NCBI GenBank assembly: GCA_012295275.1
Contig: CM022670.1
Location: 36,642,001 to 36,706,000 of the forward strand
Source of the DNA: Chrysomallon squamiferum
Lineage: Eukaryota > Animalia > Mollusca
Length of the DNA stretch: 64,000 bases
Reading direction: 5' to 3'
A program made the translations under genes and the position numbers. This document shows, piece by piece, positions 536 through 42,127 of the stretch (within the stretch, counting starts at the first letter, position 1; the number at the start of each line of letters is the position of its first letter). Below the pieces are notes generated by a model. The model ran no database searches, was not told the origin of the DNA, and saw nothing but the letters and a program-made list of their open reading frames with translations.

Positions 536-589
<54 letters not shown>

Positions 590-11718: not shown

Positions 11719-11772
<54 letters not shown>

Positions 11773-11805
11773 GTTGTTGTTATTGTTGTTATTATTATCA
11801 TTATT

Positions 11806-11842
<37 letters not shown>

Positions 11843-12890: not shown

Positions 12891-12975
12891 TACAGTAGGA
12901 TCTCGATTTAACGGACTGACAGAGATGAAATGTTGTCCACTCTTGCCGAAACACTTTAAGTCATAAACGTTTTTA
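12891..12975 (+). mobile_element. Possible old Tigger/MITE terminus in the intron of copy B (homologous at ~31740-31815 in copy C)
   Basis: TA-CAGTAGGATCTCGATTTAACGGAC resembles Tigger-type TIR starts (TA-CAGT....CTCG). No partner TIR was identified. Confidence 0.3.
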
Positions 12976-13756: not shown

Positions 13757-13799
<43 letters not shown>

Positions 13800-13937
13800 A
13801 CAACCAAATAATTAATAATAATCAGCAATACTCGAATCATAAGCCATGCAGTAATGATGATAACACTATATATTATTATTACCTTTTCATTTTGAAATTT
13901 TACTACAGCGTTTCTCAGTATTTGATTTAATTTATAT

Positions 13938-13972
<35 letters not shown>

Positions 13973-14505
13973 TTCATTTGGTTGTCGACATTGTTGCTGA
14001 ATGTTTGTTTTTTTCAGGGGGTTGTCGTTTTTGATTATTTATAATTGTTTCTTTGTTTTAATGAATTATTCACCTGCTTCTGCAGACGACAAAGATAAAG
14101 TCAAGCAGTTTGGTTCAACTCTTGGCTTAAATGCTGTACAGTTGAGAAATTAGTTAATGAAGAAACTAGAAACCTTTTCTGGGACGTGCTGTACGAATGG
14201 AACAAAACGTCACAGTCTATCGCTGTTCTGATTTTAGCTTGTCAAAAATTATCTATCTGTCCATTCTCCGGTAAGATTGAATTATTATCAATGAAATACA
14301 TTTGTTGCTCGTTTCTGTCTAATTAGTGTTTTTCATGTGTAATTAAAATAAATCGGACTATTTCAGATTTTCTTTTTCAATGAAAATAGAACATAGCTAG
14401 AATCGTAGACTGTTCACAGATTATTTTCGAAAACAGATTATTATTATTTTCTGAACTATTTATTATTACTTAATTATTTTTATTATTTTGTTTTTGTTTT
14501 CAAAG

Positions 14506-14778
14506 ATGGTTTAATGCCTCCTGATCACAGCACAGCTATTGAAAAAGCATACAGCAGACTCGCAGCAGACATATTTGTAGACCATGTAGTAATATACCTG
14601 CGTGACAACGCTGTGTTGGCGCCTATTGATGTTGATTACATTCTCAGTCCAAAGACAAGAATAGAAAAGTTTCAACGGCTCGTCGACATCCTTCCTCTGA
14701 TTGGAGAGAAAGGTTTCGACTGCTTTGTGGAAGCATTGACGAAATCAGGTCAAAATCATCTTGCTAACATACTGAAAG
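14506..14778 (+). CDS. CARD-encoding exon, copy B
   Basis: 273-nt phase 1-1 exon, MPPDHSTAIEKAYSRLAADIFVDHVV...LPLIGEKGFDCFVEALTKSGQNHLANILK; aag/gtaag boundaries. Confidence 0.85.
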
Positions 14779-16748
14779 GTAAGATTATAGATATTCTCTT
14801 ATTATTATAACTTTTTTCTTAATATTCTGACAGAGAATCATGATCTGGTCCACGATTACTACATAACTTTTAAAATGACACAATCTTCGTTATGACAAAA
14901 TAACAATAATAAAGTATAGACTGGAATAAACTGTAAGAGGAAACTGTCATATACGATTTATTTAATTAATTATATTATAATCTTTTAATATATTTAGTTA
15001 TATCTTATATTTATTCCGTATTTTTTCTTCTTTCACTTATTAAATTCACTTTGTGTTTTTCTTTTAGTGTGTGTGTGTGCACTTTTTTATTTTGTATTTT
15101 ATTTTTTTATAATTTTCTTCAGATGAATTAAAGAAACTGACTCCTGTTTCGGACACACTAAACAGGGAAGAATTGGAACAAACACTGTAAAGTGAAATAA
15201 CAACTGATGATGAATTCCACAGCTTGAATGAAAGCCATGAGGCCGATTTTGACCTAAGTTCCTTTATTCTTATATTATTACTGCAATTGTCACTATTTAT
15301 CCTCTACAAAATCTGGTAAAATAATACTGAATTTTTTAAAGGTTAATGGGCAATGATTGGTGATTAACTATTATCTGTTGCAGTTTCCAGTTTATTAAAC
15401 ATTATCAAAACATTTTTTACTTTTTTATCGAGTTTTACTAAGACAGAATTTTTATAATTTTGTTTTATTATTATTTACCAGGATGTATATTGTACATAGA
15501 GATTTTGTTTAAAAGAATGCTCCTTAATGAGTTGAATGAAACTAGATATAGAGTGGTAATAACATTATTAAACATTAGTCATAGGTTTATTAAAGTTTGT
15601 GATACAAATTTTATAAAGAGGTTGAATTTAAACTGAAAATTTGACTTTAAAAGATGAATTTTAGAGTAAATCTATTTTCACGTTGTTGTGTGTATTTTTT
15701 TTAGTTAATCAGAATGCAGTGTATTTTTTCTGAAATGACAAAAACAAAATGACAAATATGAAATGCCATATAAAAAATTTTTATTTCTGAAAACAGTGTA
15801 TTATGTAAAAGATACATTTCAAAATGTTAATAAAACATATATCAACATCTGAATATCATAAAAGATACAAAGACTAATAAAATCTACAAATAGTAAAAAA
15901 TCATGCCATAAACTGATAAAGATATTTTAAAACATTTAAATATCAATTTTCTTAAATCAACTCTTACTTGGAAACTTTATCTTCTAATGTTAAAACATGT
16001 TATCCAGTAAGTATAGCAAATATATCAACCTAAATTTATAACAACTTGCAATTTAACAAAACTTTTGGAATATATTGAGAGAAAGAATTATTAATATTCC
16101 CTAATATTTTAATTTAAAAATTTAGGTTTTTGACTGTATATACCATAAAATTAAATTTATATATATTTAAAAAAAGTAAATGGCATTCAAAATCTGTAAT
16201 AAAAGTATCTGTTGAATAATGATGTCAAGCAAATAAATAAATAAATAAATAAAAAGTATATTAGTTTAAGGCTTTTGCAATATTCTGTAGAAAGTGTTAT
16301 ATTATTCTGAAAATGTAATATTTTCTTTTAAAAATCATACATTTTATCATTTAATATGAGTTTTAAGTTTTTTTTAACATGATGAAATACTTTACAGTAT
16401 CAAAGTTGTATAAAGTATTAAAATGTAGTAAATTATGATGAATATAATAAAATGTTTAACAATCATTTTCATCATTATACATTATTGGTGTAATGTTCTG
16501 TCACAACCATTTATGTTTTGTAAATGTATGTATATGTATTCACAAAAAACAATAGCATAAAAAAATAATAAAACTAGATGTGTGAGTAGATGTTCATACT
16601 CATCTTGTTACAGGATACTTTGAGTTAACTGTCTAATTGATGGCTACTTGTCATGTAAGTAGAAGGGAATTACAAAATGTTTCATCTCAAAAGAAACTGT
16701 TTTCAAAATATTTTCACATCAATGTTATATTTTTTCTTGAACATTCCA

Positions 16749-21700: not shown

Positions 21701-22344
21701 CTGAAATGATATAAAATGAGTATAACATTAAATTTGGTCATCAAAAATGTGCAATAAAATACAAAGCATGTCTATTATAATTCATTTAATTGCAGGTAAT
21801 GCAATGATTATTCTAAAACGGCTTTCATTTTTCATTCAAGCATTGTTTGTATCGATGCAGCTAGTGGCAGGCTTTCTCGTAAAAATAATCCCCAAGCGCT
21901 ATAAATCATACTTCCAATCATTAGCATAGGGAGCTTTTCACACCCCAAAATAAGCTACTAAAGAAACGTCTCGGTGTGCGTCCGTCTCTATCGTCGACGT
22001 TACCTGTTTTTCTAGTCCAACAAGTCCATGTCCCAAATAACACATCTTAGGTTCAAGTTGTGTTGTCGTCTTTTTCACTTGAACATTGTCTCACTGTCAC
22101 CGGAACGAACGATTAGCTCTTCGTCAGTCGTGGCACCAGCTTGGACATGCGGTAGGAACTTTGACTTTCGGGCTCCATTCTGACGGTTATTGCATATGTC
22201 TAATAATCGCCGCACATAACAAGCCTCTAGACGTCTAGTCATTAAATCAACAACCAGTGCTCTAGTCCAAATTAATTTACAAACAAAAGATCGCAGATAA
22301 TCACCAGTTTTTAAAATAAATCCATATTAATGGTATATCTTAAG

Positions 22345-25300
22345 GTGTGTGTCCAAGGATTATTAATGTTTGAGAATGTATGCCTCTTTGCTTCTTTACT
22401 GGCAACAGTTATATGTATCATAGGAGTTGGTGTGTTTTGTTGAACATCAAACAAAGCCCTTGGTCTAAATATTAAAGATGTTCTGAATGATCTGTTTCTG
22501 TTTAATGTTAGCTGGTTGGAATTTGTACACAAATATTCATATTAAACTTAGTATGATTTTACAGCTCTGCTTACTGAAACAGTAAATCAGTAAAGAATTG
22601 CCAATAAACTTTTATAAATTCAGAAAGAATTTGTTCAATATTTATAGAGTATCAAATCTTGTTGTGTATATATATTTTTTAAAGACTTGGAAAAAATATA
22701 ATAAATAATAAAATTTAAGAAAATTACCAAAATGGTAAAACAAAATAATTGATTATAGGAAGATACGTTCTGGGTTATTTCTGTAACAACAGTAATGGCT
22801 AATTGTACTCTAAATAAATATTAAAATGATTAGGTTTAAATTTAATTTTTAATTTCTCTGTTTCTTTATGACAAATTTAGGTTGGAGGTTATCCAGGTGG
22901 TTTTTGTTGTCATTGCTGTAGCAATGGCTGTGTATGCTGTTATCTTGTTGATATTTGGATTTCTGGCAACTGGTGCAACACGACAGAATGTGTATTCTGG
23001 TGCAAAGTGCATTATGGGAGGAAGAGTGTCTGCAGCATTTGTTAGTATCTAACATATTTATTTAAATCTATCTAATGTGTTTTTATTTGTATGCAAAAGT
23101 CCAAATTTTTACAATATTTTGAATTTATATTTATATAGTATTTTTTGGGGTTATAATAACAAAATTGAATCATGATTGATAAAATCTATGAAATTTTGTC
23201 AATCCAGTATTAAAAAAGGCAAAATGTAACACTGCCCTGAAAGAAAAATTAGTATTAACTTTTAATTACAAGTATCAGAATATGTTTAATGTATGTAGTG
23301 TTATTTTATGATAGAATAAGAATTATAAAATTTATTCTTTTATTGATAACAGTTTACATATATTACACACTAATTCTGAACATTTTTATATTTCTTGTAC
23401 TATGTTCCCTAAACAGTTAACTTTACTTTTCAATTTTTTAATTATGCAAATTAAATTTTATTATATTTGGTTTGTGGAAGTTTGGTAAAGATTGTTTGGG
23501 GGAAGGAATTGCACTAAAAATAAATGTAAATGTGAAATACTAATAATTATCTCTGTTTATTTTTTCAGTTCACTGTTATCATGTACATTCTCAATCTTGG
23601 CTAGATTGTGATAATGTGTATTTCTGTCATCCCAGTTATTCTGTATGCATCTATTTACTCTATCTGTGACAATGAGGTTTACAACAGAAATGCAAAACAC
23701 TTACTTACTGCTTCAACCTGACTAAGTTTGGTAAGACGTTTTAAAGTTCTCTGTTTGTCTTGTATTCATATAATTTACAATTTATTTTTGTGTCAAATAT
23801 ATTTTTGAAACAGATTGAATTTTTTTGTAAATAAATGATAAAATTGTTTTCGTTATGTTTACATATTAAAAAATGTATTTTGTTTCCTTCAAAATGCAGT
23901 GAAAGTAAAGTTCTGAATATACTATAAAACCTACCTTGATATTAGTTAAAAAAAACAACAACCAAAAACCCCAACTAATCAGAACAAAATTAAATTTATT
24001 CTCAAGATTTACAAATTAGAGAAGATGAAAAAACATGCTACTTTATTACAAACTGTTTCATGAAACCTGATTCTTATGAACATGAATTTGTACAGTTTAT
24101 AAACTTATGAAGATAATTTCAATTAAATTTATTAATAATAGTCATTTTTAAGGCCTGTTACATACATTGTTTTTTTAATGATTTTTTCTTTTTCACGTTT
24201 AGGTGTGTATTGGGGTTCTGTTTATCCAGTCAGTTTTTCAGCAACTGGAAAAGTTAAAGTGAAGGTGAAGTTAAACAAATGTGTGATACAGTAAGTTAAT
24301 TAACACGTGTAAACATATTTACTGCACTAAATATTAATGTAAACAAACAACACAGATTGTTACGTTCTCATGTGATTGCTGTAATTATTTGTAAAAATAA
24401 TTTTCTTTCTTAATTATTTAAAATATATATAGATAATTTAAAAATGAATTAACCTGTATAAAATTATGTACTACTCTGAAATTTATAAATATTGATCTGA
24501 ATTGACTAATATTTCAGCATATATAACTAAACAGTATAGATTGTTACATATTTCTGTCATGGTTATTATTTTAAAATTATATATCAGTTTTAAGTTTAAT
24601 AATTACATTCTGTTCATAATGAGAATATCCAAACCTCTCAAGGGAGCTAACTAAAAGTTTTTATAGGCAATGTTGTTATTTTATGAAATTAATTTCCTAG
24701 CAAACTTTTATAAATTATTTTTATTTATTTTTATTTTTAGGTGATTGAGGCTGGTCCCTTGTTTTGTGTTGCTTCCATAGGAGGTTTATTCATAGTTCTC
24801 GGAATGGTGAGATTCTAAAAATATTTAATTTTACATTTTAAAAAATAAGTATTTTTTAAAAACAATAGTTTTGTTTCATGTGTGTTATGTAAGTATTAAT
24901 TTTTTTAGATGGGTGTAAGAAAGTACACTGAAATAAGGTAAATTATATAATATTATATATGTAAGAGGTAAACGTTTCAAAATTCTCAAAGGCTTCTTCT
25001 TGAAATAAAGTTAATATACAAATCTCAAGATGAAAATAACAAGCAAATAAAACCTTCAAAAGTCAGTTTTCTGTCTATAGTTTGAAGATAAGCTATATTT
25101 TTAGTGATGAATAAATTATTCAGAAATGTTTCATCTTATATTGTGAGTTTAATTTATCTCATCAAATTAAGTTAAGTAACTATAGTCTGACTTGTGGACT
25201 AGCATTTGTTTTTTTCATGGTCCTGTTCAGCTGATAACCATAACTGGTTTTTCATAATTGCATTTCTGTATATAAATGAATTTAAATATATAATTTTTTT

Positions 25301-26359
25301 TTTTTTGTCTGGCAGCAAACTATACACGCATTAAGATTTCAAAGGAGTTGATTGAATACCGAGATGATCTTGAAATGGAAGAACTAGAACTGAACAGCAT
25401 TCACGACAGAAGTCAGAAGGGACCTCCACCGTATATAACAGTGATGTGAAGATGTTTCTAAAACAGTTTCTTTTGAGATGAAAAGTTTCTTAATTCGCTT
25501 CTACTTAGAGAACAAGTAGCCATTAATAAGACAGTGAACTCAAAATATTCTGTGATCATCTACTCACACATCCAAGGGTGAAGTAGTTACAAGTGGCAGA
25601 ACATTTTGTTACAGAGTTTTAGCAATTAATTAATTTTTGAGGTGATTGAGGCTGGTCCCTTGCTTTGTGTTGCTTCCATAGGAGCTATATTCATTGTTCT
25701 TGGAATGGTGAGATTATAAAAATATTTATAATTATATTTTTTTTAAATAAGTATTTTCTAAAAAAACAGTGTTGTTTCATGTGTTGTAAGTATTAACCTT
25801 TTAGACAGGTATAAGAAAGTACAATGAAATAAAGTAAACTATATAACATGATATATGTAAGAGGTAAATTTTAAAATTTTAGTAATAAGGCATATCAAAA
25901 TCTCTAGATGAAAATAATAAACAAACCTTCAAAAGTCAGTTTTCTGTCTATAGTTTGAAGATAAGCCATATTTTTAGTGATGAATAAATTATTCAGAAAT
26001 GTTTCATCTAATGTTGTCAGTTTAATTTATCTTATTAAATTAACTTAAGTAACTATAGTCTGATTTGTGGCCCAGCATTTTATGTCATGGTATTTAAATA
26101 AAAAGAAGAAAACAAATTTGTTGGGTCCTGTTCAGCTGATAACCATAACTGGTTTTTCATAGTTGCATTTCTGTATATAAATTAATATATATTTTTTTTC
26201 TAGACCCTCTTCATGACTTGTCTTGCAGCAGACTATACACGCATTAAGATTTCAAAGGAGTTGACTGAGTACAGAGATGCTGTTGAAATGGAAGAACTGG
26301 AACTGAACAGCATTCACGACAGAAGTCAGAAGGGACCTCCACCTTATTTAGGCCGTTGA
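22345..26359 (+). pseudogene. M6: Myelin proteolipid (M6/PLP family) pseudogene, copy 2
   Basis: Exons 22345-22514 (GGA>TGA at 22441-22443), 22881-23040, 23569-23730 (TGG>TAG), 24203-24290, 24741-24806 and 25642-25707, 26204-26359; AG/GT boundaries. Confidence 0.88.
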
Positions 26360-29300
26360 TGGAATGTTCAAGAAAAATACAAAATTTATGTGAAAATATT
26401 TTGAAAACAGTTTCTTTTGAGATGAAACTTTTTTTAATTCCCTTCTACTTAGAGAACAAGTAGCCATTAATAAGACAGTGAACTCAAATTATCCTGTGAT
26501 CCTCTACACACACATCCAAGGGTTAAGTAGTTACAACTGGCAGAACGTTTTGTTACAGAGTTTTAGTAATTTTAATTATGAGAATCAAACTTTATTCATC
26601 ACTCCCTGTTGATTTTATATTTCTTAGATGAATTATGAAAAGTAAAATTTATAATTTTGTAGTGATTACTAGTACCATTATTATTAAAAGCAGGCGTTAA
26701 ATGGAGACACATGAATAAAAAACATATTTATACATCTCTTTTGATTTATAAAATTTCCAGCAGTGCTTCTTTACTTTCATTTTTTAATTGAACAGTGGCA
26801 TATAGTTTAGCTGGGTTTTTTTGTATTTATTTTTTTAAGTTCTTTTACAAAAAGTGACTGGAAACATGTTTGACTGCTTCCAACCAATGGAATCGCACAA
26901 AAAGTGACTCCTAATGCCTACACATTTTGATGATAAAATGCCTCTAAACCTTCATTCTTTATTCTTTTGTACGTAAAAGAAATAAGAGAAAGAAACATTA
27001 TTTCAACTTTGTAATATTACTGAATTATCAGGTCACTTATTTTTATTATTATTTAATTTTTATCTTTGCCTCATATCTTTTTAATAGATGATTTAAACTG
27101 TAAAAAAAAAAATTAGAAAAAACTTTTTAAAAATTAACATAGAAACTTAATATTTCAAAATATTTTATCAAATACATTCCAAACATTGCACTGTTTGTTC
27201 ATATTTTTTAGTATATATTTATTTATTTTAATGTATTTGCTATTTATGAATACATATATACACATTTACAAAACATAAATTGTTGTGACAGAACAAAACA
27301 CCAATAACGTATAGTGATTAAAATGATTATTAAACATTTATTTATATTTATCATAATTTACTATATTTTAATAATTTATACAACTTTGATACTTTCTTGC
27401 TTTATTATGTTCATATTTTGGTGGAAGTGATTTTACTGATCATATATTTTTCACATATTATAATGTACTGCTTGAGAAGACAGAATAGTTGATCAGTTAC
27501 TAAAAGAATATTCAGGCCAGATATCATATGTATGTATTACTAAATAATATTAATTTTAAACAACACTATAGATTTAACATCAATTGGTACTATTAATATT
27601 CCACAGTTCTCCTGATGTTTGGCCAAGTATTCTTTTTAAAAAAAGAAATAATTTCATTTTCTTTTTATTTATTTATTTAAAAACATTTTATATGTACATT
27701 TGTATTCTTGTATTTCATCATGGAAAAACAAATCAAAACTATTATTAAATGATAAAATGTATTATTTTTAAAAAAAATAAATATTAGATTTTCAGAATAA
27801 TATAATAGTTAATACTTTCTATATGATATTGCAAAATTCTTAAATTAATAGTACTTTTTATTTATTTATTTGGATTTAGGATGCTTGACATGATTATTCA
27901 ACAGTGAAATTTATTACAATTTTGAATGCCATTTATTTTTTTAAATATATTTTATTTAATTTTATGATATATACACTGAAAAGATAAACCTAATCATGTT
28001 TTTATATTAGAATATTAGTGAATATTAATAATTATTTCTCTTAATATATTCCAAAAGTTTGGTTAAATTGCAAGTTGTTATAAATTTAGGTTTATGTATT
28101 TGGTATTAAATGTTTCAATGTTAGAACATAAAGTTTCTAAGGAAGAAATGATTAAAATATTTACATATTTAAATTTTCGAAAATATCTTTTATGTCACAA
28201 TTATTTACTATTTGTAGATTTCATTAAAAATAAACCTTTTAATTTTAGTTTAATAGTTGCCTAATATTTACATTTTCAAATCTGTTATTTTAGCAGTTTG
28301 TTTTAAAAATATTTGTAACTGCACAATGAATGAAAGATGAATTTACATTTTTGGAATATTGAGTTATATAAATATTATAAAGAAATCTGATTTCATCAGC
28401 TTCATTTTGACACCACTCCATTTTCAAAGTTTGTTTGATTGCAGAGATATGTTAAATATTGGTAATCATCGAAAAAAGTGGCCAAATTTCTTCAGTCTGC
28501 TATTTTCATTTCACATTTTGGAGATAATGAGTTATGTAAACATTCATATTTCTTAAGTCTTAAGCTTGTCACTCTTTTTGCCACAACCTGCATAATTGCA
28601 AAGGTTTGCTGAATTTTCATAGCTGACTTCTGATTTCAAAAACAGAAATGCTTGATTTGTTATGTTTACAAAATCTCTTATTTCAAGAATGAAATCTATG
28701 ATTTTTGTTTTTTGATGAATGAACCGTGACTTAATTGCTGATTCAGTTTGCAGGATCCAGTGTGTTTGAAGTAATTAGACTGGCACTGTTACAAATACAT
28801 ACAAGAAAAATAACATTCTATATCAAATGACCTGACTCTGGTTTTATGTCAAAGTTGTTCTTTTTTCACATGCACACTTGATAACGTAGGGTCTATGAAT
28901 AACTTAATTTGTTTTTTATAGAAAGACAGTAATAAAATTTGGCTAGTCTTTGTATATTTTATAATATTCAGATGTTATTATATAGTTGTATTAACATTTT
29001 TAAATGTATCTTTTACATAATACATAGTTTTCATAAATAAACTTTTATATGGCATTTCATGTTTTTGATTCTTCATTCTCATTTCAGAAAAAAATAATAA
29101 TTATAAAAAATACATTGCATTCTGATTAACTGAAACACCTATGCAACAAGTGAAAATACATTTATTATAAAATTCATCTTTTTAAGCCATCATAAGTCAA
29201 ATTTTCTCTTTAAGTTCAACCTCTCTTCACTGATTTTGAATCTTTGTCACAAAATGTAATTCGCCGATGACTCATTTTTAATCATTTTAATATTACGTAT

Positions 29301-29497
29301 CTAGTTTCATTCATCTCATTAAGGAGCATTGTTTTAGACAAAAACTTTAACGATACAAGATACTTTATAAATAATAATAAAACAAATCTATAAAAAATTC
29401 CATATTAGTAAAACACTATAAAAACATTTTTTTTTTAGTAGTCAGCCATAATTTGAAAACTGTTAAACATGAATAATTGATCACTGCCCATTAACCT

Positions 29498-30348
29498 TTA
29501 AACAAATTCAGTATTAATATATCGGATTTTATAGAAAATAAATAGTGACAAGAGGAATAATAACATAAGAATAAAGGAACTTAGCTCAAAATCGGTCTTA
29601 GTTCTTTGTATTTCACTTTCCAGTTGTTGCTCATATTCTTCCCTGCTTAGTGTGTCCGAAACAGGAGTCAGTTTGTTCAGTTCATCTTAAGAAAATACAG
29701 AAAAAAAGAAGAAAAAAGTGTTTTCGCACACACAAACACACATACAGAGAGAAAATAAACAAAAACAAAAATTTAACTTAGTAAGTGAAAGAAGAAAAAC
29801 TCAACAAAATAATAATAATAAAATTAAATAAATTAAATAAATCATATATGACAATTTCCTCTTACATTTTTGCCACTCAATATTATGTTGTTGTTATTTT
29901 GTCGTAACGAAGCTTCTGTCATCTCAAAAGTTATGTATAATTTCATGTTTTTTTTTTTTTTTTTTTTTTTCTTCTCGTGGAACAGATCATGATTCCCTTT
30001 CAGAATAAAAAGAAAAAAGTAATAATAATAACAAAAATATGCATAATCTTACCTGACAGTATGTTAGCAAGATGATTTTGACCTGATTTGGTCAAAGCTT
30101 CCACCAAGCAGTCGAAAGCTTTCTCTCCAAACAGAGGAAGGGTGTCGACGAGACGTCGAAACTTTTCTATTCTTGTCTCTGGACTGAGAATGTAATCAAC
30201 ATCACAAAGTGACAACACAGCTTTGTCACGCAGGTATATCACTACATATTCTACAAATATGTCCTTTGCAAGTCTGCTGTATGCCTTTTCAATAGCTGTG
30301 CTGTGATCAGGAGGCATTAAACCATCTTTGCAAAAAAAGAAAAAAAAA

Positions 30349-30406
<58 letters not shown>

Positions 30407-33400
30407 GTAATAATTATAATAATAATAATCAGATTTATGTTAAATAACACAAGAAAAAAGAAAGTAATTAGACAAACTAGCAACAAATGTATTTCACTGG
30501 TAATAAACAAGTCTTACCGTAGAATGGACAGATAGATAATCTTTGACAAGCGGAAATCAAATCAGCGATGGACTGACGTTTTGTTCCATTCGTACAGCAC
30601 CTCCCAGAAAACTTTTCCATTTTCTTCATTAACTATTTTCTGCACTGTACAGCTGTTTAAGCCTAGAGCTAAACCAAACTTCATGACTTTATCTTTGTCG
30701 TCTGGAAAAGCACGTGAATAATTAATTAAAACAAAGAAAAAATTATAAATAAACAACAACGACAAGTACCAAGAAAGAAAAAAAAAAAAAAATAGAACAA
30801 ACAGCAACAGAGTTTATAGCACCCAATAAACAAATTAATAAATATAAATTATATCAAATACAGAGAAACGATGTAGCAACATATCAAAATGAAAAGGTAA
30901 TAATAATCTATAGTGTTGTTATCATTACTGTGTGGCTTATGATTCCATTACTGCTGATTATTATTTGTTTAGTTGTAACACACATTTATTTATTTTTTAT
31001 TTATTTATTTTTTTGAAATGGAAACGTTTGGTTTCGTAACTGATTCTAAACATACCGATGTTTTTTTCAATTCAATATGCAAATCCTAAAATATGTGCAG
31101 GCAGATAGTTCCGATTCTCATTTGATCGTTTACTTTCCTCCTTTGCCAAAGTCAGCAGTTCTGTTAACTTGCTGCTAGTAGTTTCTGTTGATGCCAGCAA
31201 ACTACGTACTAATCTAGCACATTCGTCTTGTTTGTTCAAAACAGAAGATATATTAATTTCGTGTACCTGAAATTAAATTTGAACAAATGAAATTAATATT
31301 TTCCGTTGTATAAAGGAAACCTCCCACTAGCTTTCTTCGATTGAAAATAAATGCTTTATTACTGATATTTGATTCCAGATTTTTCTCTTTATTTACTGCT
31401 GTAGTAACATCATACAGTAAATTATTGGTTTAAAAGTCAACAAGTCAACTGACTTCATTTTTAGCATATACTAATTCCATTAGTTCTAAAGTAAACTTTT
31501 TGTTTGTGTCGTCCCTAATTTATTTCACGTACAGGCTTTCATCGTGTAATTGTTTAGTGATCCTAACTGTATATCATTTCTATAAAACATCACTATTGAT
31601 TATGGCAAAGGACCTTTTACAAAAAAAAACAAAAAGAAAAATAAAGTATTAAATTTTACATTAAAAATAGTGAGCATATAAAATTGAAAAGAATAAACTT
31701 ATAGAACTATAACATTAAAATATTATCCTTTTTAAACGTTTATGACTTAAAGTGTTTCGGCAACAGTGGACAACACTTCAAATATGTGAGTCTGTTAAAT
31801 CGAGATGCTACTGTATTTGTGTTACTTTATGAGCTTATTGAGACAGAATCAGAGAAGCACATACATACGCATATACATATTACCGAGGAAAAACATATTA
31901 ACAGATAAAAAATATAATATTTTTACTTCAGCAGATGACTAAATTGTTTCATTTCATTCTCCAACGATTTACATACTATTGATTAAGGTTTCCGTTTCTG
32001 AATATTTATTATTAATAACAAAACCGAGAATACAAGATTCATGACGTTATCATACATAGTGTTGACCGATCTGCACAAGATAAACATAAGTGCATGCAAA
32101 TGCACCGGAAGTACAATAAAAGTAACTAACTAAACAAACAAACAAATAAATAATGTTACTGTTGCGACTATTAAAATTAAAAGCGATAATAATAACTAAC
32201 TAAATAAGTACTGCTATTAACGTTGTATTTGATTTGTTGGTAGAAAATAAAAGTAGTTTAAAAAATTGACAATTATTATATTTTTACTTACTCTCATCCA
32301 AAGGTGACTGTGAGATTTCACTTCTCTTGCTAAGACTTGTTCCAGTGTTTTGCATTGTTGCTTCATCATTTCTATTTCTTTCATTGTGTCATTCCCTATC
32401 CTGTCTCTAGCAAAATGTACTTCTACTTTCTCAAGAACATCTAAAGACCTCTTCTTGAACTCATCCACGGTGCAAAACATCTAAATGAAATGAATAGTTT
32501 CCATTATATAAACGAAAACAAAATTTGTCAGCAACCTTTGTCAGTAGAAAATATATGACTTATTAATAATCTTTGATTCCAGATTTTTCTCTTTGTTTCT
32601 GTAGTAAAAATTATACAGTAAATTTTCGATTTGACGCTATTCTAATAATTGGCAGAGTATTATTTTGTTGTCACTCTTTGTTTCGAGCTACAACAGGTCG
32701 TCAAAAATAATAACTTTCAAGCATAAAGTATTTTTAGACCATTTATTCGTACCATCAAATGTACTCTTTAAGTTATTTTGATGCAGATACTTACAAATGC
32801 ATCAGACACGCGCATGACAATAAGAAAAAAAAACGATAATAATAAAACAAAATCATTACACTTTTACTTACTTCCATCAATAGATGACTGTACTGTTTCC
32901 TTTCATGGGACTCTTCTGCCCCTTTGAGTTGTTCTGTCAATATCTTCATTGCATAATCTAGTTTTTCTTTCAGACTCTCATCCCGTTTATTGTCTGCATC
33001 AATTTTTTTTCCCGAGTCTCTCTAATGTATCAAATAACATCTTCTCGAATCTGTTTTCCAGAGTTGAAACCAAACTGTGCCCGGCGTCGTACAGAATCTG
33101 ATCTGCAGCATCCTTCTTTCTGAGTTTGTCTTCAGTTTCTTTCAGTCTGGCAGACAGATCTCTTATTGTCGCTTGTTCTTCTTGCAAACGAAGATTGCAG
33201 TTCTCATGGACGTCTCGTTGTAATTCTGTTGTGACTTGGCTTTCAGTGAAAGAACACCGTGTTTCCTGCGTCGGTCCGGAAACAATTGTTGGTAGGTTTG
33301 TTTGATTGGGAGTAGCTGCATGTTTTAGGTATTCTAATTCCAATCTCAGTTTTCTGTTTTCACTCTGCATTGTGTGAACTAGTTGTGGTGCCTCAAGGTA

Positions 33401-33505
33401 ATTTTCAAGTTTATTTATTACTTTGTTAGTTGATTCACAAATGTTTTGCTTGTCTTCACAATTGTCCTTTTTTCTTTTCCTTTTGCGAAATGATCTTCCA
33501 AACAT
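29498..33505 (-). pseudogene. Coiled-coil-DD-CARD-TM gene copy C (divergent N-terminus, disrupted)
   Basis: Exons 32872-33505 (+1 A in the A8 run at 33003-33010), 32292-32480, 31056-31266 (TGA at 31072-31074 where B and D have CGA), 30518-30701 (184 nt, same 2-nt deletion as A), 30053-30325 (CARD), 29498-29685 (TM tail). Confidence 0.82.
30053..30325 (-). CDS. CARD-encoding exon, copy C
   Basis: 273-nt exon with the same translation as copy A. Confidence 0.85.
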
Positions 33506-34681
33506 TATAATATACTGTAGTAACGGTATTTATCAGTCAAAGAAACTGAAAATTTGTTTTTTTCAGTATATTTATCAAGCTTTTCCTATTATAAAAATAG
33601 CAAATCAAATATTATTTAAAACAATAATGGCAATGATTTTTTTCTGTGATGATCATCATAATAATTATAAAAATGATGATGACGATTATGATGAATCACC
33701 TGTATAAATAAACATGATCTAACAAGATAAATAAAAAAGTGTTATTCCCGGAGACACATTGATTTTTATCTTTACTGCAAACACCAATTCACTGATAACG
33801 TGTCATCTGTGACTATCTACTAACACATATATTTGCAGTAATCTGTTAAATCATGTACAGCAGTGTGGGTAATCTTTGTTTATTTGATTATATATGAAAT
33901 GATGAAAGTTTTGTTTGAATTGTCAGAAACTGAAAAACTATGAATTTTTTCTTGATAACTCAAAGATGATGTTGCGTCCTAATTGCTGATTCAGTTTGCA
34001 GCGTCCAGTGTGTTTCAAGTAATTAGACTGGCACTGTTACAAATACATTCAAGAAAAATAATATTCTATATCAAATGACCTGACTCTGGTTTTATATCAA
34101 AGTTATTCTTTTTTACATGCACACTTTATAATGGTGTGTCTATGCATAACTTAATTTATATAGTTGAATTAACATTTTTAAATGTATCTTTTGCATAATA
34201 TATTATTTTAATATACAAAAAATTATATGGCATTTCATGTTTGTCATTTCAGAAAAAACTAAATTTATAAAAATACATTGCATTCTGATTAACTAAAGAA
34301 AAAAATCCCACAACAACGTGAAAATACACCTATTATATGGTTCATCAGTATAAGACATCATAAGTCAAATTTTCACCTGAAATTCAACCTCTTTATCATT
34401 TTTGTATATTGATTTTGAATCTTTATCAGAAATGTTAATTCACCCACTCAATACCTAGTTTCATTCAGCTCATTAAGGAACATTCTTTTAAACAAAATTT
34501 CTATGTACAAGATACATCCTGGTAAATAAAAAATAAAACACTTCTATAAAAATTCTATAATTAGTAAAACATGATAAAAAATTAATACTTTTTTGGCAAT
34601 CGTTCATAAACTGGAAACTGCAACAGGTGGTAGTTAATCACTGATCATTGCCCATTAACCTTTAAAAAATTCAGTATTATT

Positions 34682-35510
34682 TTACCAAATTTTGTAAAGG
34701 ATAAATAGTAGCAATTGCAGTAATAATATAAGAATAAAGGAACTTAGGTCAAAATCGGCCTCATGGCTTTCATTCAAACTGTGAAATTCATCATCAGTTG
34801 TTATTTCACGTTGCAGTGTTTGTTCCAATTCTTCCCTGTTTAGTGTGTTCGAAACAGAAGTCAGTTTCTTTAATTCATCTGAAGAAAATTATTTTAAAAA
34901 AAAGGAAAAAAGTGCACACACACACTAAAAGGAAAACGCAAACTGAATTTAATAAGTGAAAGAAGAAGAAAAAAACCGGAATAAATATAAGATATAACTA
35001 AATATATTAAAAAATTATAATATAATTAATTAAATAAATCGTATATGACAGTTTCCTCTTACATTTTTTTCCAGTCTATAATTTATTATTGTTATTTTGT
35101 CATAACGAAGCTTGTGTCATTTTAAAAGTTATGTATAATTCCGTTTTATAGTGATCGTCGACCAGATTGTGTTTCCCTATCAGAATATTAAGAAAAAATT
35201 AATAATAATAAGAGAATATGCATAATCTTACCTTTCAGTATGTCAGCAAGATGATTTTGACCTGATTTCGTCAAAGCTTCCACAAAGCAGTCGAAAGCTT
35301 TCTCTCCAAACAGAGGAAGAATGTCGACGAGACGTCGAAACTGTGCTATTCTTGTCTTTGGACTGAGAATGTATTCAACATCAGTAGGTGTCAACACAGC
35401 GTTGACACGCAGGTATATTACTAAAGGGTCTACAATTACTTTTTCTGTAAGTCTGCTATATGCCTTTTCTATAGCTTTGCTGTGATCAGGAGGCATTAAA
35501 CCATCTTTGA

Positions 35511-35560
<50 letters not shown>

Positions 35561-37135
35561 TAATAATAATAATAATAAATAGTTTAGAAAATAATAATAA
35601 TTGTTTTAAAAAAGAAAACGGTAAGAATTTGTGAACATTCTACGATTCTTGCTATATTCTGTTTTACAATCTCTTTGAAAAAAACCTGAAATAGTCTCAA
35701 TGGAAAAAACAACAACAAGAAAAAATGTTTTCTAATAGTCAGATTTATGTTAAATAACACATGAAAAATAGTAATTAGAAGAAACGAGCAACAAATATAT
35801 TTCACTGATAATAAGCCAATCTTACCGGACAATGAACTGATAGATAATCTTTGACAAGCGTTAATCAGAACAGCGACAGACTGTGACGTTTTGTTCCATT
35901 TGTACAGCACCTCCCAGAAACCCATACCACTTGCTTCATTAACTATTTTCTCCACTGAACTGCTGTTTAAGCCAAGACGTTTACCGAACTGCTTGACTTT
36001 ATCTTTGTCGTCTGCAGAAGCTGGTGAATAATTCATTAACACAAACAAACAATTATAAATAATCAAAAACGACAACCCACTGAAAAAAAAAAAAACATTC
36101 AGCAACAATGTCGACAACCAAATGAATAAATGAATAAATAAATAAATATAAATTAAATCAAATACTGAGAAACGCTGTAATAAAATATCAAAATGAAAAG
36201 GTAATAATAATATATAGTGTTATCATCATTACTACATGGCTTGTGATTCGATTATTGCTGATTATTATTAATTATTTTGTTGTGACACACATACACACAC
36301 ACACACACACACTTTTTATTGTTGTTTTCTTAAGTTTAAATTTTTTAGTCTCGAAGCTGATTCTAAACATACCAAACTCTTTTTCAATTCGAAATGCAAG
36401 TCCTAAAATGTGTGCAGGCAGATGGCTGCCATTCACATTTGATCGTTTGCTTTCCTCTGCCAAAGTCAGCAGATCTGTTAACTTGCTGCTGGTATTTTCT
36501 GTTGATTCCCGTAAACTACGTATTGCTTCCTTATATTCTTCTTGACTTTTCAAAACAGATGTATTAATTTTGTTTAGCTGAAATTAAATATGAACAAATG
36601 TGATTAATATTTTCCATAATATACACGTAGACGGAAACTTTTAATAGCTTTCTTCGTTAGAAAATAAATGCTTTATTACTGATCTTCGATTCCAGATTTT
36701 TCTCTTTATTTACTGCTGCAGTAACATCATACAGTAAATTCTTCGTTTAACGTCAACATGTCAACTGACTTCATTTTTAGCAGACTATTTCCATTAGATC
36801 TAAAGTAAACTTTTTATTTCTTGTAAAGTGTATAGGGTTAGGGTTTCTCCATTATTTCATCGACAGAGGTCCGCATCTTAGAAATTGTTTTTACCCCTTT
36901 GGCTGGAGTTATAGCCTTTACTGGCTCCTTCTGCTTCAGAATGGTACATATCGTTAAAGTACTACGCTCGTACTGCCTAGCCAAGTCGACTATATGCACA
37001 CCTCTCTCATGTTTTTCGGATATTGTGTTGTTCGTTGCGCCAACTAACGGCGGCGTATCTGAAGCTAGCTCGTAACTCGGATATTGACTCGCAACTCCAA
37101 GCAAAAATGGACCGCTGTTTTATTATTTATTTATC

Positions 37136-37181
<46 letters not shown>

Positions 37182-37197
37182 TATTTATGTATTATTG

Positions 37198-37262
<65 letters not shown>

Positions 37263-39308
37263 AAGATCACATTAAAAAATCCGGCAACCTCCGGACGTGA
37301 AAAGTGACGGATTTTCAAAAATGCCGGATATTTTATGGTTATATATGCTGTGTATATATAACAGAAAATTAGTACCTGTTTAGTCCTTTAAAGAAAGAAA
37401 ATTAAACACTAAATGGAAAGCAAATGAAATTTTAATGTTCACCTACTAAATAAAATAGTTCTACAGAATTTTAATTCAACTAAATAAAATAGATCCTCAG
37501 AATCTGAATTTAGAAAAATCTCAGAATTTTAATTCAACTAAATAAAATAGTTTCTCTGAATTTTATTCATTACTGTACCCTCGAAAAGAAGCTAAATAGC
37601 AGGATCAGCATCTTCATCACTGACATTGACAATATTCTCAGCAATAGGAACATGTTGATGGTGGTTGCACATCTGGTTGACTTGAAGTTGATGGCAGTGG
37701 TTTATCAAGTGTGGACACTGCCCCTGCTTCTTCCTGCTTCTAGCTATTTTCGGACTTTTAACCGAATCTACAATTTCAGAATCAGTGTAATGATGAACTG
37801 TAGGCACATTGTCATCAACATCCATCCAATCTTTAAAAGATCTTCATTTATCCTTCATGAAAGCTTCTTGGCATCAGGATTAGTTACATCTTTAATATAA
37901 GCAATAACTTCCTGTAAAAGCTGCTTTTCTTTGGAAACCCTAAACCCTCCAAAATTATTTTCTGTTACTTCGTTAGAATGAGAAGTAAACATTAAACTTG
38001 GCCACAATTTATGCCATCCATTTTTCAATGTTGATATTTTCACAGACTTCCATGAATTGGCAACACAGTACACTGCATCCGTAATGTTGAATTCGTTTAT
38101 GAATTCTGAACTGAGGTGCCTGAATTAAGTGAACTCGCTAGGCGCCTCATTAACAGGGATCGATACCATTGTCCTGTGGTTGAATTAGTGATGTGCAGTC
38201 GGATGGGAGGTAGACAACAAAAACATTATCTTTTGGAAGTGCCGAACAATTATCTAAAATAAGAAATATCTTGCATTTAGGGTATACTCCAACTGTATTA
38301 CAGTGTGTCCTAGCCCCAGGAACAAAACATTTTTGAAACCAATCCAATGTAATATCAGTGGTAACCCACCCCTTCTTGTTGGCACGGTAATAGACAGGAA
38401 ACTGTGTCATTCCCTCGAAGGCCCATGGATGTAAACTTTTCCTGATAACAAGCGACTTACATCTATGGATACCCGCAGCATTAGAGCAGCTCATTACGGT
38501 GACGCGATTCTTCGATGGCGATTCTGCATTCTTAATTGTCACAGTTCTTTTTGGTGTACATCTCCAAAACAAGGCAGTCTCGTCAGCATTGTACACTTGT
38601 TTAGGACGTAAATGTTCATCACTTACTAATATTGCAAATCATCCACAAATGCACTAGCCGCATCTTTTTCAGCTGAACGTTTTTTTTTACCACACACACC
38701 GCACGAAGCTGTAAGCAATGTCGCGACTTGAAACGATGCAGCCAACCTTCTGAATATTCATACTTGTGTTGCAATCCCAGCTCTTCGTGAAACACTTTGC
38801 CTTGTTCCTTTAATAATTCACCAGAAATTTCCACACCTTCACTTACACGAAGATTAAACCAGATTATGAGAACTGGATCCAGTTCCTAACTTTTCCCTCC
38901 ATCATTGACTTCCTTATAAACATCTGCTTTTTTGATCCACTAACAGTTTTTCTTTCTGTTTTTTAACATCTTACACTGTTGAAGGAGGCAGTGTCGTATG
39001 TTTCACAAATGGTTTGCACAGACACGTCGATATTATTATTTTATTAGCATTTCCAGTTTCTCTGCGATCGACAACACACGATGTTTACGTTTTAGGCCAC
39101 CTCTTTTTTTTTCTTTTTTTTGCTGAATGCATAATGGTGTTGTACAGCAGCAAATAAATGATAAAATGAGAAGGAATGAGCAGGAATAACTGTTAGCAGG
39201 TGCAAGCAAGACCCAACAGCTGATTCTGGAGTACAGAACCATAAAAACTCAAACAGCGCCTCCAGAAAACAGTGGCGCGCCAACAAGGTAAATCCATGCC
39301 GGAAATCT

Positions 39309-39346
<38 letters not shown>

Positions 39347-39959
39347 TACTGTCCAATTTTAATGAAGTATAACAATACAACTGAAAAAATATATGGATGC
39401 CATTATTTTGCTGAATTCGTAACATTATCATACATAGTGTTGACCGATTTGCACAAGATACGTGTAAATGGGTGCACAGGCACCACAACGAAAACAAATT
39501 CAAAGTTACTACTAAATGTTTACTTACTTTCATCAACAGGCGATTGTGAGATTTCACTTCTGCCGCTAAGGACTTTTCCAGCGATTTGCATTGTTTCCTC
39601 AACATCTGTATTTCTTTCATTCTATCATCCTTTACCCGGTCTATATCAAATTTTGTGCCCAGTCTCTCTGTTATATCTAAAGACTTGTTCATGACCTCGG
39701 ACATATCTTTCACTGTGTCGTACAAAAACTCCTCCTTCTTTCTGAGATCGTCTTCAGCTTTTTTCAATCTGGCAGAAAGATTTGATATTTCATTTCTTTG
39801 TTCTTCCAGTTGAATATTACAGTTCTCATGGACATCTCGTTTTATTTCAGGGAAAGAAGTCGAAGTTTCCGACTGTTTTAGCATTTCTTCCGACGAGTGG
39901 GAAGATGTGACAAATTCCACCGATTCGTCCATTTCATCGGGTGAAGGTGTTAAATCCAT
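34682..39959 (-). CDS. Intact coiled-coil / Death-domain-like / CARD / tail-anchor protein, copy D (430 aa)
   Basis: Coding exons 39528-39959 (432 nt), 36373-36577 (205), 35826-36011 (186), 35232-35504 (273), 34682-34878 (197). All are GT-AG, phases are compatible (0,1,1,1), total 1293 nt, with no internal stop. The protein ends SSFILILLLQLLLFILYKIW*. Confidence 0.85.
35232..35504 (-). CDS. CARD-encoding exon, copy D
   Basis: MPPDHSKAIEKAYSRLTEKVIVDPLVIYLRVNAVLTPTDVEYILSPKTRIAQFRRLVDILPLFGEKAFDCFVEALTKSGQNHLADILK. Confidence 0.9.
35826..36011 (-). CDS. Death-domain-like exon, copy D
   Basis: DDKDKVKQFGKRLGLNSSSVEKIVNE...FWEVLYKWNKTSQSVAVLINACQRL fits the Death-domain pattern (..LGl....i..i; L..W; tv..Li.al..l). 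Helix 1 would come from the end of the previous exon (ILGLAFRIEKEF). Confidence 0.7.
36838..37104 (-). mobile_element. Fragment of a Tigger (TIGD1-like) transposase N-terminal HTH
   Basis: EKHERGVHIVDLARQYERSTLTICTILKQKE...PAKGVKTISKMRTS...MEK is a CENP-B/psq-type HTH. It is absent from the homologous introns of copies B and C. Confidence 0.7.
37260..39311 (-). mobile_element. Near full-length decayed Tigger/pogo (Jerky/TIGD-like) DNA transposon in coding intron 1 of copy D
   Basis: Colinear fragments KRKHRVLSIAEKLEML, ISGELLKEQGK...SEGWLHRFKSRH, YNADETALFWRC.P, RVTVMSCSNAAG, LILDNCSA, TSLIQPQD, AN.W..V...TL.NGW.KL. The ends carry ccggca/tgccgg motifs and abut TA inside (TTA)n tracts. Confidence 0.88.
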
Positions 39960-40126
39960 TGTATTTAGTAGAAATGGTATTTATCAGTCAAAGAAACTGA
40001 AAGCTTGTTTATTTCCGGAAGTTGATCAAGCTGTTCCTACTATAAAAGTAAGAAGTCAAATAATGATGATGAAGATGATTTATAATGAAGATAATAATAA
40101 TAATAATAATAATAATCATAATAATC

Positions 40127-40173
<47 letters not shown>

Positions 40174-40539
40174 TTAATTGAAACTTAACAAAAACTAAAT
40201 CGCCTGTGTAAATAAAAATAACCTAATAACCGATACTTAACATAAATAAAACAGTAGTCATCTAGGAGAAATCTCAACTTTATCTTTTCTGCAAATTGCA
40301 ACTCACCTATAACATGTCGCAGTACCAGAATCTATTAACTCATATATTTGTTATAATCTGTCATGTCATCACCAACAGTACAGGCAAATGTTTTGGATAT
40401 TTGAATATAAAAATGCATATTATTGCCAAAAAATAAATTACTAATATTATTCCTATAGTAAATTTGTTGCTGCAGCTATTAAGATTGGTAACAATGAAAA
40501 TAACTGAGTAACAAACTAAAAAAAAAAAAAAAAAAAATA

Positions 40540-41316
40540 GGTAAAAATTTAATTACATTATTTCCATTTCAATACATATATAATTTACCATTTAACTTAC
40601 CGTATAAATAATTTCAAAACTGAACTGAAAAATCACATAATAAGTACACAGTTTAAGTATTCTGAATAATATATTTTTTTCAGTAAATGGTTTGACCAAA
40701 ACAGTCAATAGCCTAAGAAGATTGATCGTATCATCTACGTTGAATCTCAAAATACGAATTTCCACTTGCATTTGTTAAATGAGACACATTTCAACTACAA
40801 AGAATAACTTCACATGCAAAAATATTAATTTTTTTAAAATAGCCCAAAGAAAAACCTCAGTTATGCGTTATAGCTATAAAAATAAGGTAAAATTTTTTTT
40901 AAATGTAAAGTATTTTTGTTTCGTTATGAAAGTAAAATATATTGTAATAATTAAATCAGGTCAAATAATATTTTACATAGAAACCTGATGTATTATATCT
41001 TAATGTATTTACGTAGATCAAAACCTGATATTAAAACATAGGTGTAAATAAATATTTTTTTGTATTGCATTTAAAAAAGATCGTTGAGATTTTCCTAATT
41101 ATTTTATCTCTAAATATTTTGATAATAATCCGACACAACTTACCTTGTTAGAAATATGTGCTTGTGTTAGCTGGACTTTACACATGTGACTGTAAAGAAG
41201 GTGATTTTGTTATCAGCAGCATGTGATATTCTATTTTTACTGTTTATTTACTTATGTGTCTGTCAGTTTTATAAATAACAACTACTGTTGCTAAGATTAG
41301 TACTAATTTTAATTTA

Positions 41317-41378
<62 letters not shown>

Positions 41379-42127
41379 TTATAAAGAAGTCGTAATTTCC
41401 TCTGAAGAGGAAACCCGCTTCAGACAAACATGAGTTACTCTGCCTGATTACAGCAAGGGTTATTTTACGAACCTTTGGTCTTTAATCAGGCGATGGTGAA
41501 TTTCTAATCTGAACTGCAATTATTACTGCTCCTGAAGCCGCATTTTAATAATTTATTAATTCCGTTATTTTTTGTTAGTTCTGGTAATTATTTAAATAAT
41601 TATTTATAGATAATTAATTTTAACTATAATTTACTGTTATTCAAAAAATAGATTTAGAGATCGATACAGTTTATTACTTTCTTTATATTCTTACGTTAAA
41701 AGTCGTTATTATATTTTTTAGTTTAAAATTTTACTAGTATTTTGATGAATGCACTTATAATTATATGTAAATAAAAATAATCTTAACGGTTTTCGTTAAA
41801 TGCTTGTTTTATAACGACTATGATGTGATTGTTGTTATTATTATTATTATCATCATCATTATGGTATGTCTCTGTCTAATAACATAGCCCAATTAAAATG
41901 TAACACAGAGAAGCAGAAAGTATTTTTTTAAGAACTTGCATCTAATTGATTTTCTTGTAATGAAAATTCGAATGAGGAAATCCATTGCAGTCATTTCTTG
42001 AAAATTCTTACGCATTTTTCTTCTTCTTCTTACTATTGTTGTTGTAGTTTGCTATGATGATGTTTCTCTTCTTAGTACCCATATTTTCATTATTATAATT
42101 ATTATCATTATCGATATTATTATCATT

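What the first reader, a model, noticed from the sequence alone, without database searches (positions are those of the whole stretch)
34682..39959. Intact, apparently unnamed tail-anchored death-fold adaptor: coiled-coil / Death domain / CARD / TM
Seen: five GT-AG exons splice in frame to a 430-aa protein with a ~190-aa E/K-rich heptad-like region, a Death-domain-like segment, a CARD, an acidic linker and a terminal hydrophobic helix (FILILLLQLLLFILY) followed by KIW*. No signal peptide is evident. The ORF track misses this because it is split over exons. Established: a C-terminal TM with a short basic tail is typical of tail-anchored mitochondrial, peroxisomal or ER proteins. MAVS and CARD19 are CARD+TM with an N-terminal CARD; RAIDD/CRADD is a soluble CARD-DD adaptor. 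Inference: the order CC-DD-CARD-TM matches none of these, so this may be a lineage-specific membrane-tethered immune or cell-death signalling platform.
Basis: partly seen in the sequence, partly recalled or inferred. Interest (0 to 1): 0.85.

Follow-up and report, generated by a model that had tools for sequence, protein, structure and literature searches.

The report
Membrane-tailed snail death-domain/CARD adaptor
A five-exon gene, likely from a snail, encodes a predicted coiled coil, a death domain joined directly to a CARD and a hydrophobic C-terminal tail; it belongs to an apparently unnamed family shared by molluscs and brachiopods and likely gathers caspase-type partners on a membrane, in animals whose caspase activators are partly unaccounted for.

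Summary
Five GT-AG coding exons on the minus strand give an open 430-aa protein: long helical region, death domain (DD), CARD, acidic linker, 15-18-residue hydrophobic tail.

The interpretation needs three corrections. (1) The DD-CARD tandem is not lineage-specific: uncharacterised relatives occur in Gigantopelta, abalone, mussels, scallops, a chiton and Lingula, some fused to TIR, kinase or ZU5. (2) The tail is the narrow feature: only 1 of 41 fetched DD-CARD proteins has one, though all 4 copies in the window do (3 are broken). (3) Bivalve MAVS already combines CARD, DD and a membrane anchor, in the opposite order.

It is not MAVS or CRADD by architecture. Its CARD is closest to RAIDD by sequence, and the tail's properties point to ER rather than mitochondria. 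Most likely it is a membrane-tethered bridge from DD partners to a CARD caspase (inferred, about 0.45). This is testable, because a survey found Gigantopelta has caspase-2 but no detected CRADD or APAF-1. The scan had not noted this family before.

The parts
39528..39959 (-). Coding exon 1 (aa 1-144): acidic N-terminus, then heptad-rich helical region
36373..36577 (-). Exon 2 (aa 145-212): end of the helical region and first helix of the death domain
   Evidence: joined to exon 3 in RNA contig X1 record 5
35826..36011 (-). Exon 3 (aa 213-274): rest of the death domain; alternative acceptor at 36020 adds 3 aa
35232..35504 (-). Exon 4 (aa 275-365): CARD
   Evidence: PF00619 E 9.5e-13; best solved relative RAIDD CARD E 2.4e-5
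34682..34878 (-). Exon 5 (aa 366-430): acidic linker, hydrophobic tail (aa 413-427), three-residue end, stop
   Evidence: exon 4-5 joint in RNA runs X1 and X4
37855..39248 (-). Decayed Tigger/pogo-type DNA transposon inside intron 1 (approximate limits from ORF pieces)
   Evidence: DDE_1 E 2.8e-23 and HTH_Tnp_Tc5 E 1.6e-9; frames
29500..33505 (-). Paralogue C, broken: frameshift in exon 1, stop in exon 2, 184-nt exon 3; keeps CARD and hydrophobic tail; N-terminus resembles Gigantopelta P0001
11985..15319 (+). Paralogue B, broken: no ATG at the homologous place, stops in exons 1 and 5, 185-nt exon 3; keeps tail codons
1..1437 (+). Paralogue A (3' part only in window): 184-nt exon 3 (frameshift), CARD and tail kept; inverted 97.5% duplicate of C's 3' region

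Best explanation
This is an intact, intron-split gene, likely from a snail, for a protein with a predicted coiled coil, a death domain, a CARD and a hydrophobic tail, which likely works as a membrane-tethered adaptor bridging death-domain partners to a CARD-bearing caspase. Steps: (1) Shown: reading frame, domain order, spliced transcripts of this copy or close paralogues, family membership. (2) Predicted: the tail inserts as a tail anchor and leaves all domains in the cytosol; high hydrophobicity with a tail charge of +1 favours ER-type membranes over mitochondria or peroxisomes. (3) Predicted: DD and CARD pack as one unit, since the linker length is nearly constant across the family. (4) Inferred: the coiled coil and the membrane cluster the tandems, which seed a death-fold assembly that dimerises a caspase-2-type enzyme, as RAIDD does in the PIDDosome. 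The upstream signal is unknown. The anchor likely arose from, or decays back to, a terminal helix that other family members keep in amphipathic form.
For: CARD passes Pfam. Its best solved sequence relative is RAIDD (E 2.4e-5; family profile E 4.1e-7, then CED-3). The model of Gigantopelta P0003 (pLDDT 86, pTM 0.70) matches caspase-9 CARD at Z 16.2, rmsd 1.1 A, 93 residues. Matches starting in its DD part are death domains (FADD Z 10.5, RIPK1 Z 9.2). 32 of the 41 DD-CARD proteins have a 4-5 residue gap between domains (the profiles came from some of these same proteins, but the alignment shows it too). Family members are fused to TIR (P0081; weakly P0033), a tyrosine-kinase-like domain (P0006) and ZU5 (P0042), all signalling contexts. 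The tail is kept in 4 of 4 window copies, and 4 of 5 amino-acid changes between copies D and A are hydrophobic or become so. The three listed RNA differences inside tail codons are synonymous (only 40 of 96 difference rows were shown). One Gigantopelta paralogue, P0003, also ends in an insertable tail. Targeting rule: PMC5450235 passages. G. aegis has a CARD caspase and FADD but no detected CRADD or APAF-1 (PMC11463336 text and supplement).
Against: No partner, localisation or activity was tested. 40 of 41 DD-CARD proteins lack a hydrophobic tail, including P0001, the closest full-length relative (40% identity), so the anchor is not needed for the family's core function. Homology between this tail and P0003's is not shown (777 of 5000 pattern-preserving shuffles score as well), and P0003's tail rests on an unverified gene model. 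7.5% of random frames here end in such a tail. Three of four window copies are broken. dN/dS against them is 0.25-1.32, which is biased by pseudogene decay but shows no strong constraint. The CARD tree separates the family from CRADD-like and caspase CARDs only weakly (72/94 and 86/80). The folds are of Gigantopelta relatives, not of this protein. Other molluscs that carry this family may also have CRADD (not checked species by species).
Confidence: 0.45

Rival explanations
1. The tail is incidental. The protein works as a soluble or loosely membrane-bound DD-CARD adaptor like most of its family, and the terminal helix drifted to high hydrophobicity in T-rich DNA within a fast birth-and-death gene cluster.
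For: 40 of 41 relatives have no such tail. Exon 5 aligns end to end with P0001's C-terminus (45 of 2000 shuffles as good), putting the tail in register with a non-insertable helix (model residues 506-530). Tail codons are 53% T. The background rate of such tails is 7.5%. T-rich DNA is reported to yield membrane segments de novo (PMC7005711, title and start of abstract only).
Against: The tail is kept in all four window copies, with mostly hydrophobic substitutions, and in a spliced paralogue transcript that runs through the stop (X4 record 24). Its hydrophobicity is high enough that insertion is expected whatever its origin. Seven fetched relatives (five clusters; abalone, Lingula) end in basic-aromatic tails of net +8 to +11, which hints at repeated membrane targeting, although these could be nuclear signals.
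Confidence: 0.22
2. It is a membrane-bound decoy that soaks up CARD or DD partners and dampens death or immune signalling, as CARD-only inhibitors do (recalled knowledge).
For: It has no catalytic or sensor domain. The lineage-specific duplication and loss seen here is typical of tuning paralogues (inference). Overexpressed oyster MAVS attenuated reporters in human cells (PMC5557890 passages), so such architectures can inhibit.
Against: Two different death folds kept in fixed tandem across molluscs and a brachiopod, and fusions to TIR or kinase domains, fit a bridge better than a sink.
Confidence: 0.18
3. It is a convergent MAVS substitute: a mitochondrial or peroxisomal platform for RIG-I-like or other CARD sensors in gastropods.
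For: Same domain set as bivalve MAVS. MAVS was reported absent from abalone and Aplysia. The modelled tandem aligns over 135 residues with MDA5 tandem CARDs (Z 13.7, rmsd 3.5). One PxExxE TRAF6-type motif sits at aa 7-12 (pattern recalled).
Against: The order is reversed and the CARD is internal. The RIG-I/MAVS-type CARD model scores under its cut-off (22.4 against 28.2). No MAVS CARD is among the 25 solved-structure sequence hits. Tail properties favour ER. The motif is absent from P0001 and P0003. Abalone members have no hydrophobic tail.
Confidence: 0.12

Closest known systems
Bivalve MAVS (CgMAVS; PMC5557890, PMC11103948)
   Same: CARD + Death domain + C-terminal transmembrane anchor in one mollusc protein
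   Different: CgMAVS is CARD-Death-TM with an N-terminal CARD. Here the order is coiled coil-DD-CARD-TM, the CARD is closest to RAIDD by sequence, and the tail favours ER. No direct sequence comparison with CgMAVS was made.
RAIDD/CRADD
   Same: Bipartite DD + CARD adaptor; closest solved CARD by sequence; top ESM Atlas feature hit is a CRADD-family cluster (0.85-0.87, a lead only)
   Different: CRADD is about 200 aa, soluble, CARD first. CRADD-like hits fall outside the family in the CARD tree (weak support).
Uncharacterised lophotrochozoan DD-CARD proteins (Gigantopelta LOC121375424, LOC121376358, LOC121374409; Haliotis, Mytilus, Mizuhopecten, Ylistrum, Pinctada, Liolophura, Lingula)
   Same: Helical N-terminal region followed by directly joined DD-CARD; 36-40% identity to the Gigantopelta proteins; CARD groups with them at 99/95
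   Different: Only LOC121374409 has an insertable tail; others end in amphipathic or basic tails, or carry TIR, kinase or ZU5 domains
RIG-I/MDA5 tandem CARDs and tandem DEDs (rigid death-fold pairs; PMC11874512 passages)
   Same: Two death folds predicted to pack as one unit; the model aligns over both with MDA5 2CARD
   Different: Mixed DD + CARD pair, no helicase; packing is only predicted, from a relative
CARD19/BinCARD2 (recalled)
   Same: CARD protein with a C-terminal membrane anchor
   Different: Small, N-terminal CARD, no DD or coiled coil; not tested beyond a generic fold match (Z 10.5)

Membership tests
MAVS (bivalve type) | N-terminal CARD followed by Death domain | tested here: not met
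   DD at aa 196-272 precedes CARD at aa 277-364, behind about 190 residues
MAVS (bivalve type) | CARD of RIG-I/MAVS type (PF16739) | tested here: inconclusive
   22.4 bits against cut-off 28.2; relative P0003 just passes at 28.7; PF00619 scores much higher in both
MAVS (bivalve type) | C-terminal transmembrane anchor | tested here: met
   By hydropathy prediction only
MAVS (bivalve type) | Binds RIG-I CARDs and TRAF6; self-associates through the TM | not testable with these tools
   Needs co-immunoprecipitation
MAVS (bivalve type) | Sequence orthology with CgMAVS | not tested
   No protein named as MAVS was among those fetched
CRADD/RAIDD | Short soluble CARD-then-DD architecture | tested here: not met
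   430 aa, DD-then-CARD, coiled coil and tail
CRADD/RAIDD | CARD resembles RAIDD CARD | tested here: met
   Best solved-structure hit, E 2.4e-5
CRADD/RAIDD | CARD groups with CRADD CARDs in a tree | tested here: inconclusive
   Groups apart from four CRADD-like hits (labelled by domain order, not by name), support 72/94 only
CRADD/RAIDD | Activates caspase-2 | not testable with these tools
   Needs an assay
Tail-anchored proteins | Single hydrophobic segment at the C-terminus and no signal peptide | tested here: met
   Top hydropathy windows all start at aa 408-412; N-terminal 40 aa have net charge -8. No dedicated TM or signal-peptide predictor was available.
Tail-anchored proteins | Post-translational membrane insertion | not testable with these tools
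   Needs fractionation and protease protection
Death domain (PF00531) | Six-helix death fold of DD type | tested here: met
   Indirect: under Pfam cut-off itself; independent family profile 21.8 bits against 7.3; relatives P0024 and P0030 pass the cut-off; P0003 model matches FADD and RIPK1 DDs
Unnamed lophotrochozoan DD-CARD family | DD joined to CARD by a short near-constant linker, behind a helical region | tested here: met

The most novel reading that the evidence does not exclude
An undescribed mollusc-brachiopod family of rigid DD-CARD tandems supplies the missing caspase-2 activator in lineages without APAF-1 and without detectable CRADD, and vent-type snails have turned its terminal helix into a true membrane anchor: a membrane-bound caspase platform built independently of the apoptosome, the PIDDosome and MAVS.
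Probability: 0.2. Interest if true: 0.8.

Novelty: new variant of a known kind. Interest (0 to 1): 0.5.

Why it matters
Surveys report no APAF-1 in molluscs, no CRADD in Gigantopelta aegis despite a caspase-2, and no MAVS in abalone or Aplysia, so how these animals link sensors to CARD effectors is open. This family offers named candidate genes across molluscs and a direct test (pair with the species' own caspase-2, with and without the tail). It may also show a tail anchor arising from an amphipathic helix within one family.

Tried and rejected
No whole genome is held for this window, so copy number is unknown. Summed contig depths were not used as copy number or expression. Run X3 covered no exon, and intronic pieces in X1 (record 4) show DNA or pre-mRNA in that library, so unspliced contigs were not counted as expression. 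Word-indexed homologue searches returned only 1, 2 and 7 proteins; the family came from the profile search, of which only the best 150 of 411 hits were seen. A homodimer prediction of P0003 gave no answer (score 0.01, alignment not used). Foldseek gave no match at E 0.001 or better; VIA-align was used instead. The model was not folded as an isolated DD, and the window's own spliced protein could not be folded. Exon 3 alone finds no solved relative. dN/dS against broken copies is not informative. Homology of the tail to P0003's tail was not shown (insertion-scale values in that script were recalled and approximate). TRAF and caspase-site motif scans gave nothing conserved. Literature searches (the last with six gene or accession identifiers) found no description of the family; they cover only open-licence PMC and bioRxiv by exact phrase, and supplements were searched only for PMC11463336. 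Scan look-ups by sequence, place and words found nothing on this family.
Full report
OBSERVATION. The gene lies on the minus strand. Coding exons 39959-39528, 36577-36373, 36011-35826, 35504-35232 and 34878-34682 have GT donors, AG acceptors and matching phases, and give 430 aa without an internal stop; an alternative acceptor at 36020 would give 433 aa. In-frame stops lie just upstream of the ATG in the same exon. Exon 4 is a CARD (PF00619, E 9.5e-13). The death domain is split over exons 2 and 3. Exon 3 alone is under the Pfam cut-off (13.2 against 22.6 bits), but a profile from 9 non-gastropod relatives scores the protein 21.8 bits, against at most 7.3 in 500 shuffles, and two relatives pass the cut-off. 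A crude heptad score is positive for windows starting at residues 41-161, and the model of relative P0001 shows very long helices there. The one hydrophobic segment is residues 413-427 (mean 2.98), followed by three residues with one lysine. In this AT-rich window 129 of 1715 stop-to-stop frames end in a tail of 19-residue mean 2.3 or more, so the tail needs support beyond its presence.

EXPRESSION. Four runs were listed and laid on 34200-37100; exon 1 was not covered. In RNA run X1 one contig carries exons 2, 3 and 4 end to end: the 2-3 joint is listed as a joint, and the 3-4 join is read from the contig's pieces. It differs from this copy at 1/78 and 9/186 positions, whereas copies A-C differ from this copy at 12-13/78 and 29-32/186, so it is this copy's allele or a closer paralogue elsewhere. 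The exon 4-5 joint appears in X1 and X4, with 16/213 and 18/355 differences that include letters found in none of the four window copies, so further paralogues or divergent alleles are transcribed. The X4 contig runs through the tail and stop. Both RNA runs belong to one study, and X1 also holds unspliced pieces.

LOCUS. The window has three more copies: A (from base 1 to about 1440, +), B (about 11985-15320, +) and C (about 33505-29500, -). Each has frameshifts or stops: exon 3 is 184, 185 and 184 nt against 186; there are stops in B exons 1 and 5 and in C exon 2. A and C lie in a 7.3-kb inverted duplication of 97.5% identity. All four keep the tail codons. D against A shows 3 synonymous and 5 amino-acid changes in 20 codons, four of them to hydrophobic residues. 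Intron 1 holds a decayed Tigger-type transposon.

RELATIVES. The CARD exon finds Gigantopelta aegis LOC121375424 at 65% identity, so the source is likely a gastropod. A profile search of 1.84 billion representatives gave 411 hits, of which 150 were listed. Of 185 proteins fetched by then, 41 have a DD directly before a CARD; 32 have a 4-5 residue gap and 9, mostly amphioxus, have 17-22 (the counts include isoforms and near-copies). Named members come from Gigantopelta, Haliotis, Mytilus, Mizuhopecten, Ylistrum, Pinctada, Liolophura and Lingula, and nearly all are labelled uncharacterised, unnamed or hypothetical. Some add TIR (P0081; weakly P0033), a kinase (P0006) or ZU5 (P0042). In an 88-column CARD tree of 40 rows the window's gene groups with the three Gigantopelta proteins (99/95). 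The family stands apart from caspase, APAF-1 and CRADD-like CARDs only weakly. Only 1 of the 41, P0003 (LOC121374409), has a hydrophobic tail; seven end in basic-aromatic tails. Exon 5 aligns with P0001's C-terminus so that the tail is in register with a predicted helix that would not insert. Homology with P0003's tail is not shown.

STRUCTURE. The spliced protein itself could not be folded. P0003, folded with 26 sequences, gave pLDDT 86 and pTM 0.70, with a DD bundle, a CARD bundle and a terminal helix. The CARD part matches caspase-9 and Apaf-1 CARDs (Z up to 16.2, rmsd 1.1-1.6). Matches beginning in the DD part are FADD, RIPK1, ankyrin and p84 death domains, and MDA5 tandem CARDs align over 135 residues (Z 13.7, rmsd 3.5). 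By sequence the window's CARD is closest to RAIDD (E 2.4e-5), with no MAVS among 25 hits.

MECHANISM. Shown: gene, domains, family, splicing of this copy or close paralogues. Predicted: tail-anchor insertion with cytosolic domains, more likely at the ER, because in mammalian cells a very hydrophobic segment with low tail charge favours ER (PMC5450235, passages); and a rigid DD-CARD unit. Inferred: coiled-coil and membrane clustering seed a death-fold assembly that links DD partners to a caspase-2-type CARD caspase (0.45). Rivals: incidental tail on a soluble adaptor (0.22), membrane decoy (0.18), MAVS substitute (0.12). Results against my reading: the tail is absent from almost all relatives, including the closest; most window copies are broken; no partner evidence exists.

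COMPARISON WITH WHAT IS KNOWN. Oyster MAVS has an N-terminal CARD, a Death domain and a C-terminal TM (PMC5557890, passages), so the domain set is known; the order and the coiled coil differ, and the defining N-terminal CARD is not met. CRADD is short, soluble and CARD-first. MAVS was not found in abalone (PMC11103948, passages) or Aplysia (PMC9334734, passages). Molluscs lack APAF-1, and G. aegis has caspase-2 and FADD but no detected CRADD (PMC11463336, passages and supplement search). Passages of PMC8998645, PMC11874512 and PMC8662601 did not describe this family; the last mentions juxtaposed death and CARD domains in invertebrate NLRs. Eight searches found no description of it; subscription journals and most supplements were not searched. 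CARD19 and CARD-only decoys are recalled, not read.

VERDICT. Real gene, correct architecture, a tail-bearing variant in an apparently unnamed lophotrochozoan DD-CARD adaptor family. It works like RAIDD on a membrane by inference and is a member of neither CRADD nor MAVS by architecture.

Noticed in passing
window 1-8523 and 22311-30955: Large inverted duplication (97.5% over 7.3 kb, 92% over a further 1.3 kb) carrying copies A and C; 10294-15876 is an older inverted match to 34155-41720 (copies B and D). Some could be an assembly effect.
   Followed up: partly
window 37855-39248: Decayed Tigger/pogo DNA transposon (DDE_1 and HTH_Tnp_Tc5 hits) in intron 1 of the intact copy; copy B's intron 1 is only about 0.9 kb.
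   Followed up: partly
window 36819-37100: High-copy repeat in intron 1: summed contig depth about 100 times that of the exons in run X2.
   Followed up: no
window 9027-9386: Minus-strand frame that resembles a DIRS-type retrotransposon reverse transcriptase fragment (recalled resemblance; no Pfam hit).
   Followed up: partly
window 62944-63270: Exon of a sodium:neurotransmitter symporter gene (PF00209, E 4.3e-21).
   Followed up: no
P0006 (Haliotis asinina): The DD-CARD tandem is fused to a C-terminal tyrosine-kinase-like domain, an unusual architecture labelled uncharacterised.
   Followed up: no
P0004, P0005, P0006, P0008, P0076: Abalone and Lingula members end in basic-aromatic tails (net +8 to +11 in 20 residues); P0001 and copy C begin with a similar basic stretch. 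Could be membrane or nuclear targeting.
   Followed up: partly
P0081, P0033, P0042: Family members with N-terminal TIR (chiton; an unnamed Logan protein) or C-terminal ZU5 (Lingula), showing that the DD-CARD tandem is a mobile cassette.
   Followed up: partly
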